NCBI RefSeq assembly: GCF_055900595.2
Contig: NZ_CM148325.1
DNA: 64,000 bases
Reading direction: 5' to 3' (one strand)
In this document: positions 7,085-40,078 of the stretch, piece by piece
Numbering within the stretch: the first letter of the stretch is position 1
Layout of the letters: every line of letters starts with the position of its first letter
Program-made: the position numbers and the translations under genes
The notes under the pieces: model-generated
The model's input: the letters and a program-made list of their open reading frames with translations, nothing else
Told to the model about the DNA's origin: nothing
Databases searched by the model: none

Positions 7085-7440
7085 AGCAAAAAAGCGCCTT
7101 TAGGGCGCTTTTTTTACATTGGTGGGTCGTGCAGGATGACTCGCTTCGCTCGCCCTTCGGGCCGTCGCCGCGAGCGGCTCCGTTGTTTCGCTACGCTCAA
7201 CTCGAACCTGCTGCAGGTTCGAATCTTTGAATATCCCAGATAGCAAAAAAGCGCCTTTAGGGCGCTTTTTTACATTGGTGGGTCGTGCAGGATGACTCGC
7301 TTCGCTCGCCCTTCGGGCCGTCGCCGCGAGCGGCTCCGTTGTTTCGCTACGCTCAACTCGAACCTGCTGCAGGTTCGAATCTTTGAATATCCCAGATAGC
7401 AAAAAAGCGCCTTTAGGGCGCTTTTTTTACATTGGTGGGT
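7085..7440. repeat. tandem repeat, about 157 bp unit, a little over two copies, downstream of lysQ
   Basis: The unit starts (agcaaaaaagcgcc...) at 7085, 7242 and 7398. Each unit holds an A-run/GC-hairpin/T-run (agcgcc-ttta-gggcgct) and a 17 nt copy of the tRNA-Lys 3' end (tggtgggtcgtgcagga). Confidence 0.7.
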
Positions 7441-7508
7441 CGTGCAGGATTCGAACCTGCGACCAATTGATTAAAAGTCAACTGCTCTACCAACTGAGCT
7501 AACGACCC
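7433..7508 (-). tRNA. lysQ: tRNA-Lys (UUU)
   Basis: Reverse complement matches the E. coli tRNA-Lys sequence through the CCA end; seventh gene of the operon. Confidence 0.95.
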
Positions 7509-7640
7509 CTTGCGGGATTATGCTGCTTTAATCATTCAGGATGGTGGGTCGTGCAGGATGACTCGACTTCGTCTCGCCCTTCGGGCCGTTGCTGACGCAA
7601 CGTTATCCTTCACGTTCTCTACCAGTAACCACCTTTAAAT

Positions 7641-7716
7641 TGGTGGGTCGTGCAGGATTCGAACCTGCGACCAATTGATTAAAAGTCAACTGCTCTACCA
7701 ACTGAGCTAACGACCC
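7641..7716 (-). tRNA. lysZ: tRNA-Lys (UUU)
   Basis: Identical tRNA-Lys sequence on the minus strand. Confidence 0.95.
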
Positions 7717-7862
7717 ATACGGGTGTTACCTGAATGATTTCTACTCGGAACCAATCTTTAAGATTAGTGGGTCGTGCAGGATGACTCGCTTCGCTCGCCC
7801 TACGGGCCGTTGCTGACGCATCGTTATCCTTCACGCTTAACATCTGAGTTTGATGTTAAAAC

Positions 7863-7938
7863 TGGTGGGTCGTGCAGGATTCGAACCTGCGACCAATTGA
7901 TTAAAAGTCAACTGCTCTACCAACTGAGCTAACGACCC
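7863..7938 (-). tRNA. lysY: tRNA-Lys (UUU)
   Basis: Identical tRNA-Lys sequence on the minus strand. Confidence 0.95.
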
Positions 7939-7941
7939 GAG

Positions 7942-8017
7942 TGGTGGGTGATGACGGGATCGAACCGCCGACCCCCTCCTTGTAAGGGAGGTGCTCTCCC
8001 AGCTGAGCTAATCACCC
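7942..8017 (-). tRNA. valZ: tRNA-Val (UAC)
   Basis: Reverse complement matches E. coli tRNA-Val(UAC) with CCA end. Confidence 0.95.
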
Positions 8018-8068
8018 GATACTGCGCTGGATACTACAAACTACTTCCACCGAACCCACCGTAATTAG

Positions 8069-8144
8069 TGGTGGGTCGTGCAGGATTCGAACCTGCGACC
8101 AATTGATTAAAAGTCAACTGCTCTACCAACTGAGCTAACGACCC
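8069..8144 (-). tRNA. lysW: tRNA-Lys (UUU)
   Basis: Identical tRNA-Lys sequence on the minus strand. Confidence 0.95.
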
Positions 8145-8146
8145 GG

Positions 8147-8222
8147 TGGTGGGTGATGACGGGATCGAACCGCCGACCCCCTCCTTGTAAGGGAGGTGCT
8201 CTCCCAGCTGAGCTAATCACCC
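8147..8222 (-). tRNA. valT: tRNA-Val (UAC)
   Basis: Identical tRNA-Val sequence on the minus strand. Confidence 0.95.
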
Positions 8223-8357
8223 GATACTGCGCTGGATACTACAACTAACTAGGTTAGTGGTGGGTCGTGCAGGATGACTCGACTTCGTCTCGCCCTTCGG
8301 GCCGTTGCTGACGCAACGTTATCCTTCACGTTTTACTACCGCTTCCACCTTAGCGAT

Positions 8358-8433
8358 TGGTGGGTCGTGCAGGATTCGAACCTGCGACCAATTGATTAAA
8401 AGTCAACTGCTCTACCAACTGAGCTAACGACCC
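8358..8433 (-). tRNA. lysT: tRNA-Lys (UUU)
   Basis: Identical tRNA-Lys sequence; first gene of the operon (transcribed from high to low coordinates). Confidence 0.95.
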
Positions 8434-8597: not shown

Positions 8598-9389
8598 TTA
8601 CATCGCGTTCAGACGTTTTTGTGCCTGTTTAGCGCCATCAGTACCAGGGTATTTACTGATAACCTGCTGGTATACGGCTTTCGCTTTTGCGGTGTCACCT
8701 TTGTCCTGCATGATGACGCCGACTTTAAACATCGCATCTGCAGCCTTCGGTGACTTCGGATAGTTTTTCACTACCGAAGCAAAATAATACGCCGCATCAT
8801 CTTTTTTACCCTTGTTGTAGTTTAACTGACCCAGCCAATAATTGGCGTTTGGCAGGTAAGTTGAATCAGGGTAATTTTTGATGAAATTCTGAAATGCCAC
8901 CATTGCGTCATCCTGGCGGGATTTATCCTGCACCAGCGCAATAGCTGCATTGTAATCCGTGTTTGCATCACCGCTTTTCACCGGCGCGCCAGCATTCGCA
9001 GTACCAGCATCAGCTGTCGGCGTCGTTGATGCCGCCGCACCGCTATGATCGCCGCTGGTTGATTGCGCCGCTGCACCACCGCTGCTGAGGCTATCGATCT
9101 GCAACAGGATCTGCTTTTGCCGCTCCACGACCTGATTCAGTTGATACTGATTTTCCTGAATCTGACCACGCAGGGAATCAATATCGGATTGATTATCAGA
9201 GAGTTGTTGCTGGAGTTGGGTTAAAAGCTGGCTGTGAGCATTAGAAATACGCTCAAGTTGAGTGACGCGGTCTTCGACCGAGCCTGAGCCGACACTACTG
9301 ATTGGTGCCTGAGCAAAAGCGGCCCAGGGGGCCGCTATACCAACCAGTAACGACAGACTCAATAGTTGATGTCTGAAGTTACTGCTCAT
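8598..9389 (-). CDS. cpoB: cell division coordinator CpoB (YbgF), TPR protein
   Basis: 263 aa ORF with signal peptide, coiled-coil Q-rich segment and TPR-like C-terminus; downstream of pal. Confidence 0.9.
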   Translation of the reverse strand: MSSNFRHQLLSLSLLVGIAAPWAAFAQAPISSVGSGSVEDRVTQLERISNAHSQLLTQLQQQLSDNQSDIDSLRGQIQENQYQLNQVVERQKQILLQIDSLSSGGAAAQSTSGDHSGAAASTTPTADAGTANAGAPVKSGDANTDYNAAIALVQDKSRQDDAMVAFQNFIKNYPDSTYLPNANYWLGQLNYNKGKKDDAAYYFASVVKNYPKSPKAADAMFKVGVIMQDKGDTAKAKAVYQQVISKYPGTDGAKQAQKRLNAM

Positions 9390-9398
9390 GCAATTCTC

Positions 9399-9944
<546 letters not shown>

Positions 9945-30398: not shown

Positions 30399-31304
30399 TT
30401 ACATCTCCTGCGGTACGACCGATTTCGCCAGCAACCATTCACGAAATTGCTGCAAGTGCGGAGAGTCAGACTTCTCTTCCTGCCACGTCATAATAAAACG
30501 ATTACCGGTACGAATAGGCACATCACAGGGAATCACCATATCGCCACTATCCAAATCATGTTGAATAGCGAACCGTGGTAACAGCGCCACGCCGAGATTA
30601 GAGCGCACGGCGGCAATCAGCATTGAAAGCAAATCGAAACGTGGTCCGTTATTGACCAGCGGACTGCTAACGCCAGATAAAGCAAACCACTCTTCCCAGC
30701 CAGTAATACGGGTGCTTTGATGCAGAAGTGGTAACTCAGTAAGCAGTTCTGCCACTGACAGTTTTTGATCGGACATTGCAAGCAAACTGCCGCTGCATAC
30801 CGGCAAAATCTCCTCTTCAAAGAGATATTCTACTTCCGCCCAGGGCGCGCAAAAATTTTCGCGCATAATGACAGCATCGTACTCCCGATTAAGAAAATCG
30901 CCGTTATTAGCTAAAGAATGAATATTAACAATAATATCGGGATGTAACTTTGTGAATTCATGTAAATTTGGGATTAACCAGTGGGTACTAAAAGTAGGAT
31001 TAACGGCAAGTTCAATAACCTGAACCGTAGGCTGCCATGTCATAATCGTATTGGTATCGCGCTCCAGCTTATTTAATGTTTCTTTTACTATCCCCAGGTA
31101 ATACTTCCCTGCATCATTAAGAAAAATGCGTTTTTTAGAGTGTGAAAATAACGGAGTATGTAAAAATTCCTCCAGCGCACTTACTTGTCTGAATACAGCA
31201 CTTTGGGTTAACGCTAACTCCTCTGCCGCTCTGGTATAACTTTCATGTCGTGCGACGACCTCAAAAGTCACCAGCAGCTCCGTTTTAGGTATTTTTCCTC
31301 GCAT
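30399..31304 (-). CDS. LysR-family transcriptional regulator
   Basis: N-terminal HTH (FEVVARHESYTRAAEELALTQSAVFRQVSALEE) and LysR substrate-binding body; start placed at MRGKIPK (ORF track starts 10 codons earlier). Confidence 0.8.
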   Translation of the reverse strand: MRGKIPKTELLVTFEVVARHESYTRAAEELALTQSAVFRQVSALEEFLHTPLFSHSKKRIFLNDAGKYYLGIVKETLNKLERDTNTIMTWQPTVQVIELAVNPTFSTHWLIPNLHEFTKLHPDIIVNIHSLANNGDFLNREYDAVIMRENFCAPWAEVEYLFEEEILPVCSGSLLAMSDQKLSVAELLTELPLLHQSTRITGWEEWFALSGVSSPLVNNGPRFDLLSMLIAAVRSNLGVALLPRFAIQHDLDSGDMVIPCDVPIRTGNRFIMTWQEEKSDSPHLQQFREWLLAKSVVPQEM

Positions 31305-31893
31305 AATGCCGTCCGTGAAAAAATAACAATTCAAAAATTATTTTATAAAAAACAGTAGCACTAATGAATATCATAATTCAAATAAACAAACCAGTCAGCT
31401 ATATGTCTAACCAGGAAAATAAAGTGACAATAATCCTAAAACAGGAATTTCACCTCAGTTATCCGCATGCAATACTTTAAAGCTATTATTGCAAGAATAT
31501 TATTCATATACATGAATATACTCTAAATAAGTCAAGTTGCAGGAAGGGAACAAATAATGAATATCCAGAAGCTTACATAAGTAAGTGACCTGGGTGAGCG
31601 AACATCGATGCAGCACATGCAACTTGAATTATGACAAGTATACAATGATAAATTTATATACCCTATGTTATATATTATCTATGTCCGGTTAAATTGAATG
31701 AGTCATAGCCTTAAAAGACTTCACAAAAGATAATTCCTCTTTAACAATAAGCCAGATTTACCACTTGTAAAACTTGCTATCGCTGCATACACTACGCGCG
31801 TTTTCTTTCCCTTTTGCTGGCTGCTGACCGGAAAGACAAAATTACCCTCGCAATACAGGGGGTTGATTAACGTCTATATTTCAGGACAGCGTT

Positions 31894-33291
31894 ATGCATC
31901 ATCTTTCAAGGCTTGATAAAGCCTTTCTGCGCAAAGGGATCCAACTTTCCCGCGCCAACAATATTGTTTCATTATGTCGTCCATCAGGAGCCAGTGCCCG
32001 CGTACTGCTGCCGGACGAACTGCCGCTGGAAGAAAAAGCAGTGACACAACTGCTTGATTTTGCAGATGTGAAGCTACCAGACCACCCAGGTTATGTGCGC
32101 CAGACGTGCGCGACGCCAGATTTTCATCCCGGCAATGGCGTCCCCGTTGGCGCGGTGGTGGCCTCAACGCCGGATTTAGTCATTCCCGCCGCCATCGGCA
32201 CCGATATTTCTTGTGGCATGCGGCTGCTGACGACCGGATTAACACTTGAGCAAGCCGAAGCGCATAAAGACGTCATCGCTCAGCGGTTAACGCAAGTGCT
32301 ACTGCAAAATGAGCGCGATGTTCCGTTATCCGCACAGGCGTTCACCGCGCTTTTTGATGGCGGACCGGCAGATTGCATGTCGGCCTTGCCATCAGCAGGT
32401 CTCTGGACACGTACAAATATCCCCCGGATGACGCAAGAGATTGACCGCTGCATTGGGCTTAAAGAGCATAACAGTCATTCGCGTTATGCCCCACCCGCCC
32501 TGCTGGCAACGGACCGCGCATTACTCCGCGATCCTTGTCTTGGTACGCCGGGTTCAGGTAATCATTTTATTGAACTTCAGGTCGTTGATAACGTGGTTGA
32601 TCGCCATGTGGCCTGGCAACAAGGGCTGAAAACAGGCGATATTGTGGTGATGATCCACAGTGGATCACGAGATGTTGGCTTTTACGTCGGAAGACGCTGG
32701 ATGGATCGCGCCCGTGCTGAATGGCCCACCGGACATAAACATCCACAAAGCGGGTTATATGGTCTGGCAGGCGGACTGGCGGAGGAATATCTACAAGCGA
32801 TAGGAATGGCGGCGCGTTACGCGTGGTTAAATCGCGTGACAATTGCCGAAATGGTGCGCGTATGTCTTGCCAATCTCTTTCATCAGGACAATTCGCATCT
32901 GGTGGTGGATGTGCCACATAACATCATCCTTCGCGAGCATGAAATGAATATTCATCGCAAAGGCGCAACACCGGCACGAGTGGGCAATCTGGCGTTAATC
33001 CCCGGTTCAATGGGCGATTATTCGTGGCTTGCGGTTGGTTGCGGCAACCCGGAGTGGCTGTGGTCATGCAGTCACGGAGCAGGACGCAGCCAGCGTCGGC
33101 AGGCCATGCGCTCACGCGCGACTGAAGAGTCAACGCTGCCGTGGCAATGCGTCACATTGCGCGAAGAACGACGTCTTGAAGAAGCGCCAGCGGCTTATAA
33201 AGATATTGGTCCGGTTATCGAAGCTCAACAAGAAGCCGGATTAATTCAGCCAGCGGTCAGATTTCGACCGTGGTTAACGTTTAAAGCATAA
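31894..33291 (+). CDS. RtcB-family RNA ligase paralog
   Basis: 465 aa ORF with RtcB hallmarks (GTDISCGMRLL, GSGNHFIELQ, HSGSRDVG, CSHGAGRS); N-terminus longer than remembered E. coli RtcB, so the start is uncertain. Confidence 0.75.
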   Translation: MHHLSRLDKAFLRKGIQLSRANNIVSLCRPSGASARVLLPDELPLEEKAVTQLLDFADVKLPDHPGYVRQTCATPDFHPGNGVPVGAVVASTPDLVIPAAIGTDISCGMRLLTTGLTLEQAEAHKDVIAQRLTQVLLQNERDVPLSAQAFTALFDGGPADCMSALPSAGLWTRTNIPRMTQEIDRCIGLKEHNSHSRYAPPALLATDRALLRDPCLGTPGSGNHFIELQVVDNVVDRHVAWQQGLKTGDIVVMIHSGSRDVGFYVGRRWMDRARAEWPTGHKHPQSGLYGLAGGLAEEYLQAIGMAARYAWLNRVTIAEMVRVCLANLFHQDNSHLVVDVPHNIILREHEMNIHRKGATPARVGNLALIPGSMGDYSWLAVGCGNPEWLWSCSHGAGRSQRRQAMRSRATEESTLPWQCVTLREERRLEEAPAAYKDIGPVIEAQQEAGLIQPAVRFRPWLTFKA

Positions 33292-33388
33292 AAAAGGCCA
33301 TCATACGATGGCCAACCATGTCGAAACCGACAGCCCTTCGCCATTCCTGTAGAGGGAAGCGGCGAGGGCTATTTCTTATTACAGATAT
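33292..33388 (-). ncRNA. sdhX: candidate SdhX sRNA (sucD 3'UTR plus terminator)
   Basis: About 75 nt 3'UTR after the sucD stop ending in a ggccatcgtatgatggcc hairpin plus U-tract on the minus strand; SdhX is known to derive from the sucD 3'UTR, but I cannot verify the sequence from memory. Confidence 0.4.
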
Positions 33389-34258
33389 TTATTTCAGAAC
33401 AGTTTTCAGTGCTTCACCGATATCCGCCAGGCTGCGAACGGTTTTCACGCCTGCGGCTTCCAGAGCAGCGAATTTCTCATCCGCAGTCCCTTTCCCACCG
33501 GCAATGATGGCACCCGCGTGGCCCATACGTTTGCCTTTCGGCGCAGTTACACCAGCGATGTAACCTACAACTGGCTTGGTAACGTGCTCTTTGATGTACG
33601 CAGCCGCTTCTTCTTCAGCGCTACCGCCGATCTCACCGATCATCACGATCGCTTCGGTCTGCGGATCTTTTTCGAACATTTCGAGGATGTCGATAAAGTT
33701 AGAGCCAGGGATCGGGTCGCCGCCGATACCAACACAGGTCGACTGACCGAAACCGTAATCCGTGGTCTGTTTAACCGCTTCATAGGTCAGTGTACCGGAA
33801 CGGGAAACGATACCCACTTTACCCGGTTTGTGAATGTGACCAGGCTGGATGCCGATTTTACATTCACCCGGAGTGATAACGCCCGGGCAGTTCGGGCCGA
33901 TCATACGAACGCCTGCTTCATCCAGTTTCACTTTCACGGTCAGCATATCCAGCGTCGGGATGCCTTCAGTGATGGTGATAATCAGTTTGATGCCTGCGTC
34001 GATGGCTTCCAGAATGGAGTCTTTGCAGAACGGTGCTGGTACGTAGATAACAGAAGCGGTAGCGCCGGTGGCAGCAACGGCTTCACGCACGGTGTTGAAC
34101 ACCGGCAGACCGAGGTGGGTAGTACCGCCTTTACCAGGGGTTACGCCGCCAACCATTTTAGTGCCGTATGCAATGGCCTGTTCAGAGTGGAAAGTCCCCT
34201 GGCTACCAGTAAAGCCCTGGCAGATAACCTTGGTGTTTTTATCAATTAAAATGGACAT
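33389..34258 (-). CDS. sucD: succinyl-CoA synthetase alpha subunit
   Basis: 289 aa ORF matching remembered SucD ([33 protein letters not shown]...). Confidence 0.95.
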
Positions 34259-35507: not shown

Positions 35508-35676
35508 CCGTAGGCCTGATAAGACGCGCAAGCGTCGCATCAGGCATCGCTTGTCGGATGCGGCGCGAGCGCCTTATCCGACCTACATTGATGGTCCCCG
35601 TAGGCCTGATAAGACGCGTCAGCGTCGCATCAGGCTTCAATTGCCGGAGAAAGCGATAATGCCTCATCCGGTCTAC
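35508..35676. repeat. REP/BIME cluster in the sucB-sucC intergenic region
   Basis: Four imperfect palindromes of the gcctgataagacgcg...cgcatcaggc / gccggatgcggcg type. Confidence 0.6.
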
Positions 35677-39893: not shown

Positions 39894-40078
39894 CCTGCAT
39901 TTCTTTTGTAGGCCGGATAACGCATTCACGCCGCATCCGGCGCTGTTTGCCTGATGCGACGCTTGCGCGTCTTATCAGGCCTACGATTCCTGCATTTCTT
40001 TTGTAGGCCGGATAACGCATTCACGCCGCATCCGGCACTGTTTGCCTGATGCGACGCTTGCGCGTCTTATCAGGCCTG
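39894..40078. repeat. two tandem copies of a ~95 bp REP-containing unit (sucA-sdhB intergenic)
   Basis: tcctgcatttcttttgtaggccggataacgcattcacgccgcatccggc...gcctgatgcgacgcttgcgcgtcttatcaggcct occurs twice head-to-tail with single-base differences. Confidence 0.6.

What the first reader, a model, noticed from the sequence alone, without database searches (positions are those of the whole stretch)
33287..33400. Island right junction abuts the sucD terminator and candidate SdhX region
The RtcB-like stop codon (33289..33291) sits directly against the A-tract and hairpin that, on the minus strand, terminate sucD and would form the 3' end of the SdhX sRNA. The insertion therefore appears to have preserved the sucD 3'UTR exactly, with convergent transcription from the RtcB-like gene running into the sRNA terminator. 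Read-through from the island could interfere with SdhX.
Basis: partly seen in the sequence, partly recalled or inferred. Interest (0 to 1): 0.3.

Follow-up and report, generated by a model that had tools for sequence, protein, structure and literature searches.

The report
SdhX small RNA beside RtcB gene
This stretch is the well-known E. coli small RNA SdhX at the end of the sucD gene, unchanged from the K-12 laboratory strain, with an accessory RtcB gene ending right against its terminator; this is an ordinary arrangement, because K-12 has another gene (mngR) ending at almost the same spot.

Summary
On the minus strand, 33388..33288 is sdhX, the Hfq-dependent sRNA made from the sucD 3'UTR. 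It matches K-12 b4764 at 100 of 101 nt, with seed, both hairpins and U6 tract intact. The one difference (33289) lies 1 nt beyond the K-12 3' end mapped by Term-seq, and it is the T of the RtcB stop codon TAA (33289..33291).

The interpretation needs correcting in two ways.

1. This is probably not the insertion edge of the island. 134 E. coli genomes carry the same methylaspartate island and RtcB, followed by a 144-nt spacer and mngB-mngA-mngR before sdhX. The window sequence equals that arrangement minus 5.6 kb, joined at 33284..33287. O157:H7 carries the same joint with RtcB decayed. A direct microhomology insertion is not excluded.

2. A convergent gene ending at the SdhX terminator is the E. 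coli norm. In K-12 the mngR stop lies 5 nt from the SdhX 3' end, and about 72% of genomes share this.

RtcB has no terminator of its own. Hairpin 1 has no U tract on the plus strand. The 5' hairpin of SdhX followed by AUUUCUUAUU is the only candidate terminator. Interference with SdhX is possible but untested, and it is not specific to the island. Known element; low interest.

The parts
33389..34258 (-). sucD coding sequence (succinyl-CoA synthetase alpha); stop codon TAA at 33391..33389
   Evidence: 289-aa ORF. Annotated as sucD in the identical genome NZ_CP098223 and in K-12.
33288..33388 (-). sdhX (SdhX/RybD), the 3'UTR-derived Hfq-dependent sRNA. 101 nt by the RefSeq K-12 annotation; the Term-seq 3' end corresponds to 33290 (99 nt).
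   Evidence: 100/101 identity to K-12 b4764. 3' end at K-12 765148 in the PMC7815308 supplement.
33296..33313 (-). Stem-loop of the Rho-independent terminator of sdhCDAB-sucABCD/SdhX (7-bp stem, 4-nt loop)
   Evidence: Terminator scan hit; fold -12.7 kcal/mol. Polymorphisms among E. coli haplotypes fall in the loop (33306 C/T/A).
33290..33295 (-). U6 tract of the terminator, the Hfq-binding 3' tail of SdhX. On the + strand it is the A-tract that contains the last two bases of the RtcB stop codon.
   Evidence: Sequence; mapped 3' end at the sixth U in K-12.
33315..33325 (-). [quoted passage not shown]
   Evidence: Sequence identical to K-12; seed defined in PMC6393394.
33332..33370 (.). Long interrupted hairpin forming the E. 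coli-specific 5' part of SdhX. Its apical loop CCCUCU is the likely katG-pairing region. In the + strand reading it is followed by AUUUCUUAUU.
   Evidence: Folds on both strands (+ strand -24.2 kcal/mol, z = -3.9). katG pairing with the variable 5' region is reported in PMC6393394; placing it in this loop is my inference.
33371..33381 (+). T-rich tail (ATTTCTTATTA) after the 33332..33370 hairpin. Candidate intrinsic terminator for + strand (RtcB) transcripts; inferred, not shown.
   Evidence: Sequence and fold. The scan tool cannot report it because it only handles simple stems with 3-8 nt loops.
31894..33291 (+). RtcB-family RNA ligase gene, 465 aa (PGAP calls an alternative start at 31870, 473 aa). 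It converges on sucD/sdhX.
   Evidence: Pfam PF01139 E = 5.7e-95, covering model positions 7-425 of 426. Aligns to solved RtcBs up to their second-to-last residue, with the GTDISCG, GSGNHF and CSHGAGR motifs present. Annotated 'RtcB family protein' in RefSeq.
33289..33291 (+). RtcB stop codon TAA. It overlaps SdhX nt 98-100. T33289 is the only difference from K-12 (C there); with C the ORF would read on through the antisense of sdhX into the antisense of sucD.
   Evidence: The read-through consequence comes from reading the sequence.
33284..33287 (.). Recombination joint. Homology to the RtcB 3' end of mngBAR-containing genomes stops here, and homology to the mngR-sdhX backbone starts here.
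   Evidence: BLAST end points 33284/33284 and base-by-base comparison.

Best explanation
The segment is the sdhX gene. The roughly 10-kb sdhCDAB-sucABCD transcript (minus strand) ends at the intrinsic terminator (hairpin 33313..33296, U6 33295..33290). RNase E processing releases SdhX, which binds Hfq through the terminator/U-tail and uses the seed at 33325..33315 to repress ackA and other mRNAs. This is the established K-12/Salmonella mechanism, applied here by sequence identity.

The RtcB-family gene ends on top of the terminator tail because of a secondary 5.6-kb deletion. That deletion removed RtcB's own 3' flank together with mngB, mngA and mngR from an ancestral arrangement (island-LysR-RtcB-spacer-mngB-mngA-mngR-sdhX). 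As a result, the last RtcB codon (GCA) and the stop codon (TAA) are built from the short backbone sequence that normally lies between the mngR stop codon and the SdhX terminator.

RtcB now lacks its own terminator. Its transcripts must enter sdhX in antisense. They most likely end at the 33332..33370 hairpin plus U-rich tail, or through head-on collision with the heavily transcribed suc operon. This is the same situation mngR has in K-12.

Shown: identity of sdhX, the layout, and the population variants. Inferred: the direction of the rearrangement, the site of + strand termination, and any regulatory cross-talk.
For: sdhX identity:
- 100/101 nt match to K-12 b4764, directly after the sucD stop codon.
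- Seed as published.
- Terminator detected and stable.
- K-12 Term-seq 3' end at the sixth U.

Deletion joint:
- Type-2 genomes (134; examples L015, L016, L017 and the cryptic-clade contig L008) end RtcB with TTTAAGGGGTAA followed by CTGAAATG..., a 144-nt spacer and mngB. They end mngR with GATAAGCA[T/C]AAAAAAGGCC.
- The window, the hut-type, the Citrobacter-labelled MAG and O157:H7 all read TTTAA[G/A]GCATAAAAAAGGCC. This equals the left parent up to TTTAAGG plus the right parent from CATAAAA.
- The same GCAYAA, or GAATAA in the TPR type, precedes the A-tract in genomes that have no RtcB at all. It is therefore backbone sequence.
- O157:H7 keeps the joint plus RtcB fragments and hutH debris. 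The RtcB-sdhX adjacency therefore preceded RtcB loss in that lineage.

RtcB is intact:
- Same 1,398-nt length as in type 2, a full-length Pfam match and the catalytic motifs.

No + strand terminator at hairpin 1:
- The stem is followed by AACCAUGU.
- Hairpin 2 is followed by AUUUCUUAUU.

K-12 has the same convergent geometry with mngR. Convergent gene pairs are reported to rely on stem-loops and RNA polymerase collisions for termination (10.1101/2022.10.23.513370).
Against: Against the deletion direction:
- Distant homologues of this RtcB subfamily (Acidovorax, Massilia, Saezia, Undibacterium) end in FKA* with GCA/GCT codons, as the window does. The type-2 alleles end in FKG*. The window's end could therefore be the native one.
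- A simple deletion by TAAG microhomology would predict TTTAAGCATAA, one base shorter than observed.
- No type-2 genome with GCATAA+spacer was found. This neither helps nor hurts the deletion model, but it removes the clean 6-nt microhomology version of it.
- RtcB alleles are recombinant mosaics, so no gene tree was available to root the events.

Against the proposed + strand termination site:
- Termination at hairpin 2 is only a sequence prediction.
- The K-12 Term-seq tables searched list no minus-strand 3' end for mngR.
Confidence: 0.72

Rival explanations
1. Primary insertion junction. The methylaspartate island, with RtcB as its last gene and a native ...AAG GCA TAA end, was joined directly to the sucD/SdhX terminator. 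The join used microhomology with the backbone sequence AAGCATAAAAAA and replaced mngRAB in a single event. The mngBAR-containing arrangement would then be a separate integration or a later recombinant.
For: Distant RtcB homologues end FKA* with GCA/GCT + TGA/TAA, so the window's C-terminus looks native. The backbone carries GCATAA at the same place, giving 6-8 nt of microhomology. The island has no integrase or att-like repeats among its annotated genes, which is compatible with illegitimate recombination.
Against: It requires two independent placements of the same island (98% identical, including the LysR-RtcB spacer) in the same cydA-sucD interval. Type-2 genomes supply both parental flanks exactly. 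It also requires the type-2 RtcB end (GGGTAA + 144-nt spacer with its own hairpins) to be the derived one.
Confidence: 0.2
2. Functional antisense coupling. RtcB transcription or its 3'UTR, which is perfectly complementary to SdhX, measurably lowers SdhX levels or activity. The route would be RNA polymerase collision, RNase III cleavage of the duplex, or sponging. Island-bearing strains would then regulate ackA/acetate metabolism differently from K-12.
For: There is no + strand terminator between the RtcB stop codon and sdhX. Any RtcB transcript must cover at least the terminator and seed complement (33296..33325). The deletion removed the hairpin-containing spacer that follows RtcB in type-2 genomes.
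Against: mngR has the same geometry in K-12, where SdhX is abundant: its Term-seq 3' end is one of the strongest in the region, with 19,842 and 34,704 reads. No convincing promoter was found for RtcB (5 sigma-70-like sites against 3.2 +/- 1.8 expected; no sigma-54 site). The sdh-suc operon is a highly expressed core operon (general knowledge), so it should dominate any collisions. RtcB has been lost in about 400 genomes with no change to sdhX.
Confidence: 0.08

Closest known systems
SdhX (RybD) sRNA of E. coli K-12 (b4764), 3'UTR of sucD; De Mets et al. 2019 and Miyakoshi et al. 2019 (PMC6393394)
   Same: Same position directly after the sucD stop codon and same strand. 100/101 nt are identical, including the seed UUCGACAUGGU, both hairpins and the U6 tail. 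The transcribed 99 nt are predicted to be identical.
   Different: One base just past the mapped 3' end (G to A). The convergent neighbour is an RtcB-family gene instead of mngR, and its stop codon overlaps the last two U residues of the sRNA gene rather than lying 5 nt away.
Glutamate-fermentation (methylaspartate/mesaconate) gene cluster of E. coli O157:H7 (glmS-glmL-glmE-mal-DUF1446-gltP-fumD-cobA-LTTR; Kronen & Berg 2015, PMC4682846)
   Same: The window carries the same cluster in the same cydA-sucD interval and the same joint sequence with the SdhX terminator.
   Different: O157:H7 retains only two RtcB fragments (57 nt and 44 nt) and hutH debris between the LysR-type regulator and sdhX. 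The window has an intact RtcB gene and no hut remnants.
Convergent gene pairs with shared or overlapping terminators (SEnd-seq; Ju et al. 2019; Wang et al., 10.1101/2022.10.23.513370)
   Same: Two converging transcription units meet at a stem-loop between the genes. A hairpin plus head-on polymerase collision is a plausible way to stop the weaker unit.
   Different: Hairpin 1 is not a symmetric A-tract/U-tract bidirectional terminator. The two candidate terminators face each other and are offset by about 40-75 nt, so the 3' ends would overlap. No transcript data exist for this strain.

Membership tests
SdhX (RybD) 3'UTR-derived sRNA | Lies immediately downstream of the sucD stop codon on the same strand, as the 3' end of the sdhCDAB-sucABCD operon | tested here: met
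   sucD is 33389..34258 (-) and the homologous 101 nt are 33388..33288. sdhCDAB-sucABC lie upstream in the identical genome.
SdhX (RybD) 3'UTR-derived sRNA | Conserved seed (core CGACAU within UUCGACAUGGU) directly 5' of the terminator stem | tested here: met
   33325..33315 reads UUCGACAUGGU. Seed definition from PMC6393394.
SdhX (RybD) 3'UTR-derived sRNA | Rho-independent terminator hairpin plus terminal U stretch (Hfq-binding module) | tested here: met
   GGCCAUC-GUAU-GAUGGCC + U6.
SdhX (RybD) 3'UTR-derived sRNA | Release by RNase E processing, Hfq association, and repression of ackA by base pairing | not testable with these tools
   Requires RNA and genetic experiments. Inferred from sequence identity to K-12 SdhX. 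ackA is not in the window and its pairing site was not examined.
RtcB RNA ligase family (PF01139) | Full-length RtcB domain with metal-binding and nucleophile motifs (D..C, GSGNHF, HGAGR) | tested here: met
   Pfam E = 5.7e-95, model positions 7-425 of 426. The alignment to T. thermophilus and P. horikoshii RtcB structures shows GTDISCG, GSGNHF and CSHGAGR.
RtcB RNA ligase family (PF01139) | Membership of a named functional subgroup (canonical RtcB PRK09588, or PrfH-associated release_rtcB TIGR03073) | tested here: not met
   Scores of 206.8 and 169.3 bits fall below the curated cut-offs of 407 and 271.8. There is no rtcA, rtcR or prfH neighbour. The gene belongs to a separate stand-alone subfamily with a ~65-aa N-terminal extension.
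Bidirectional intrinsic terminator | One hairpin flanked by an A-tract upstream and a U-tract downstream, so that both reading directions see stem + U-tract | tested here: not met
   In the + strand reading, hairpin 1 is followed by AACCAUGUCG. Only the minus-strand site is detected.
Genomic-island insertion junction | The boundary between island DNA and backbone coincides with the primary integration site (empty-site comparison, flanking repeats, or integrase/att) | tested here: inconclusive
   Comparison with type-2 genomes shows island DNA (RtcB plus spacer) continuing into mngBAR, so the joint here fits a later deletion. The native-looking FKA* end keeps a direct insertion possible. No integrase is annotated in the island; flanking repeats were not searched for.

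The most novel reading that the evidence does not exclude
The E. coli-specific 5' half of SdhX (hairpin 33332..33370 with its U-rich + strand tail) may double as the terminator of whichever gene converges on sucD: mngR in most strains, RtcB here. The convergent mRNA would then always carry a ~90-nt 3'UTR perfectly complementary to SdhX. In strains where the deletion stripped RtcB of its own terminator, RtcB expression would titrate or trigger cleavage of SdhX, coupling an RNA-repair ligase to acetate/TCA regulation.
Probability: 0.08. Interest if true: 0.45.

Novelty: already known. Interest (0 to 1): 0.15.

Why it matters
The practical value is mainly in annotation. The sRNA SdhX is present and unchanged in this strain, although Rfam does not flag it. 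The 'island edge' here is better read as a deletion scar shared with O157:H7.

The locus also shows that the 3' tail of SdhX is the fixed boundary of a highly variable interval. At least five configurations exist among 5,426 E. coli genomes. An accessory gene can borrow its last codon and stop codon from the sequence next to a terminator.

If convergent transcription did affect SdhX, this would bear on strain-to-strain differences in acetate metabolism. Nothing here indicates that it does.

Tried and rejected
- **Rfam.** The gathering scan of the whole window and the E <= 10 scan of 33100..33600 gave no SdhX family hit, only a weak isrD-like terminator match at E = 0.75. This is not evidence against SdhX, because the K-12 annotation matches.
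- **Promoters.** A sigma-54 promoter search (TGGCAC-N5-TTGCA, up to 2 mismatches) found nothing upstream of RtcB, and the window-wide count was below chance. Sigma-70-like sites in 31250..32000 were not above shuffles. RtcB expression therefore remains unknown.
- **Literature.** No paper in the library mentions SdhX together with mngR. The TERMITe supplements contain nothing on mngR, sdhX or sucD. The Adams et al. tables list the SdhX 3' end and a Rho-dependent site antisense to mngR, but no 3' end for mngR itself.
- **Missing intermediate.** I searched for a genome with RtcB ending GCATAA followed by the type-2 spacer. No E. coli genome matched without the two mismatches.
- **Two independent deletions (AAAGCA versus AAGGCA joints).** Rejected as less parsimonious than one event plus a synonymous G-to-A change, because O157 carries AAGGCA on a window-like flank. 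It is not strictly excluded.
- **Rooting with an RtcB tree.** Abandoned because the alleles are mosaics.
- **Genome-contig scan with the RtcB protein.** It gave only two close relatives, one type 3 and one type 2, and six distant stand-alone homologues with unrelated neighbours. No informative outgroup emerged.
Full report
**What is at the coordinates**

The window is E. coli chromosome. On the minus strand, sucD occupies 33389..34258. The 101 nt after its stop codon (33388..33288) align without gaps to the K-12 ncRNA gene sdhX (b4764, 765050..765150), with 100 of 101 identities.

The features published for SdhX are all present:
- The seed UUCGACAUGGU sits directly in front of the terminator, at 33325..33315 (definition in PMC6393394).
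- The terminator has a 7-bp stem and 4-nt loop (33313..33296) followed by U6 (33295..33290).
- The E. coli-specific 5' hairpin is present (33370..33332).

The single difference is nt 100 (K-12 G, window A). K-12 Term-seq puts the SdhX 3' end at 765148, the sixth U, with 19,842 and 34,704 reads (PMC7815308 supplement). This corresponds to window 33290, so the difference lies one base beyond the RNA and the transcribed sRNA should be identical to that of K-12. Rfam produced no SdhX hit, so the identification rests on homology to the annotated and experimentally studied K-12 gene.

**The convergent gene**

ORF 31894..33291 (+) is a genuine, full-length RtcB-family protein:
- Pfam PF01139, E = 5.7e-95, model positions 7-425 of 426.
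- It aligns with solved RtcB structures up to their second-to-last residue, with the GTDISCG, GSGNHF and CSHGAGR motifs.
- It falls below the NCBIfam cut-offs for canonical RtcB and for the PrfH-associated type.
- It has a ~65-aa N-terminal extension and no rtcA, rtcR or prfH partner.

Its stop codon TAA is 33289..33291. The two A's are the first two bases of the A6 tract, and the T is the one base that differs from K-12. With the K-12 base (C) the frame would stay open through the antisense of sdhX and into the antisense of sucD (read from the sequence).

**The locus in the E. coli population**

Searches of 5,426 complete E. coli genomes show that the cydA-sucD interval has at least five configurations. 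All of them share sdhX up to its tail.

| Type | Arrangement | Genomes |
|---|---|---|
| 1 | mngB-mngA-mngR, with mngR converging on sdhX (K-12) | junction in 3,883 (includes the type-2 genomes) |
| 2 | methylaspartate island-LysR-(±hut)-RtcB, 144-nt spacer, then mngB-mngA-mngR-sdhX | 134 |
| 3 | island-LysR-(±hut operon)-RtcB directly against sdhX | 156 |
| 4 | O157:H7 type: island-LysR, debris, then sdhX | about 400 |
| 5 | a TPR-protein gene | at least 547 |

Within type 3, the window's hut-less form accounts for only about 8-10 genomes. A rare IS1 insertion inside sdhX also exists. The island is the glutamate-fermentation cluster described for O157:H7 by Kronen & Berg (PMC4682846).

**What the junction is**

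In every type-2 genome examined, and in a cryptic-clade Escherichia contig (L008):
- RtcB ends ...GTTAACGTTTAAGGGGTAA and continues CTGAAATG...
- mngR ends ...GCGATAAGCA[T/C]AAAAAAGGCCATC...

The window reads ...GTTAACGTTTAAAGCATAAAAAAGGCCATC. The hut-type, a Citrobacter-labelled MAG and O157:H7 read ...TTTAAGGCATAAAAAAGGCC. That sequence is the left parent up to TTTAAGG joined to the right parent from CATAAAA, with 5,610 bp missing (L015 9063..14672). The window differs by one further synonymous G-to-A change at 33285.

BLAST end points agree. RtcB homology to type 2 ends at 33284, and backbone homology to K-12 starts at 33284.

The hexamer GCAYAA (GAATAA in the TPR type) precedes the A-tract in genomes with no RtcB at all, so it is backbone sequence. 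I therefore read the junction as a secondary deletion joint. The last RtcB codon (GGG to GCA, Gly to Ala) and the stop codon were supplied by the spacer between the mngR stop codon and the SdhX terminator. This was possible only on the backbone allele that has T at 33289.

O157:H7 carries the same joint. It also carries two RtcB fragments (matching window 33018..33074 and 33248..33291) and debris of the hut ammonia-lyase gene. It therefore descends from an RtcB-next-to-sdhX form.

**Caveat on direction**

The distant members of this RtcB subfamily (57-62% identity, in Betaproteobacteria) end FKA* with GCA/GCT codons, as the window does. Type 2 ends FKG*. A native RtcB end joined directly to the backbone through GCATAA microhomology is therefore not excluded, and I give it about 0.2.

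No type-2 genome with GCATAA plus spacer exists in the collection. RtcB alleles are recombinant mosaics, so the events could not be rooted with a gene tree.

**How it probably works**

SdhX production follows the established route: operon transcription, intrinsic termination at hairpin 1 plus U6, RNase E processing and Hfq binding. Nothing in the sequence suggests any change.

For RtcB, no terminator lies before the hairpin: only 4 nt separate the stop codon from the stem, and no + strand terminator-like site was found. Read on the + strand, hairpin 1 is followed by AACCAUGU, so it is not a bidirectional terminator. The 144-nt spacer with two hairpins that follows RtcB in type 2 was lost with the deletion.

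The only canonical-looking stop signal for + strand transcripts is the 33332..33370 hairpin (-24.2 kcal/mol, z = -3.9), which is followed by AUUUCUUAUU just before the sucD stop codon. If it is used, RtcB mRNA would carry a ~90-nt 3'UTR fully complementary to SdhX. Alternatively, head-on collision with suc-operon polymerases at the stem-loops may stop it (10.1101/2022.10.23.513370). These steps are inferred.

K-12 mngR has the same geometry: its stop codon lies 2 nt from the annotated sdhX end and 5 nt from the mapped end. SdhX is nevertheless abundant there. In the opposite direction, a Rho-dependent 3' end at 765604, antisense to mngR, shows that some suc transcription leaks past the terminator.

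**Verdict**

The element is a known sRNA in a known variable locus. The only modestly new points are that the edge is a deletion scar shared with O157:H7, and that the RtcB stop codon is built from the tail of the SdhX terminator. Interest is low.

Noticed in passing
window 31540-31650: The LysR-RtcB intergenic region contains a sequence (…CAGAAGCTTACATAAGTAAGTGACCTGGGTGAGCG…GCACATGCAACTTGAATTATGACAAGTATAC) that resembles an ERIC/IRU intergenic repeat. This is judged from my memory of the ERIC consensus and primers and was not tested.
   Followed up: no
window 31779 (left limit of the RtcB module); L006 614-8355; L016 1-6919: In many E. coli genomes a complete hut (histidine utilisation) operon lies between the LysR gene and RtcB. 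Homology with the window resumes about 115 nt upstream of the RtcB start. All four combinations of hut presence/absence with mngBAR presence/absence occur, which implies recombination within the interval.
   Followed up: partly
L003 11477-11960 (E. coli O157:H7 SS52, LysR-sucD spacer): The O157:H7 'intergenic' spacer is made of debris. It has about 390 nt matching the LysR-hutH region of hut-type strains, a 61-nt fragment from within the ammonia-lyase gene, and two RtcB fragments. The 3' RtcB fragment carries a 1-nt insertion.
   Followed up: yes
window 31894-33291: The RtcB paralogue belongs to a stand-alone subfamily with a ~65-aa N-terminal extension. It scores below the curated cut-offs of the named RtcB NCBIfam models. 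Its nearest non-Escherichia relatives are 57-62% identical, in Betaproteobacteria, Gilliamella and Snodgrassella, with unrelated neighbouring genes. Its substrate is unknown.
   Followed up: partly
L004 6001-6100 (TPR-type E. coli), equivalent to window 33306, 33343, 33353: The SdhX haplotype of TPR-type strains differs from K-12 at three positions. One is in the apical loop CCCUCU of the 5' hairpin (U36 to C), where I infer the katG-pairing site lies. This could alter katG regulation in those strains.
   Followed up: no
L005 5248-5945 (E. coli FDAARGOS_944): An IS1 element is inserted between mngR and sucD, and homology to the window stops at 33316. The SdhX terminator hairpin is therefore separated from the seed in that strain.
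   Followed up: no
window 7120-8433, 9360-9498, 35513-35583, 39911-40076: Rfam hits elsewhere in the window: a tRNA/RtT array (minus strand), the CpoB/ybgF thermometer, and three REP-derived naRNA4 matches. One naRNA4 match lies in the sucB-sucC spacer.
   Followed up: no
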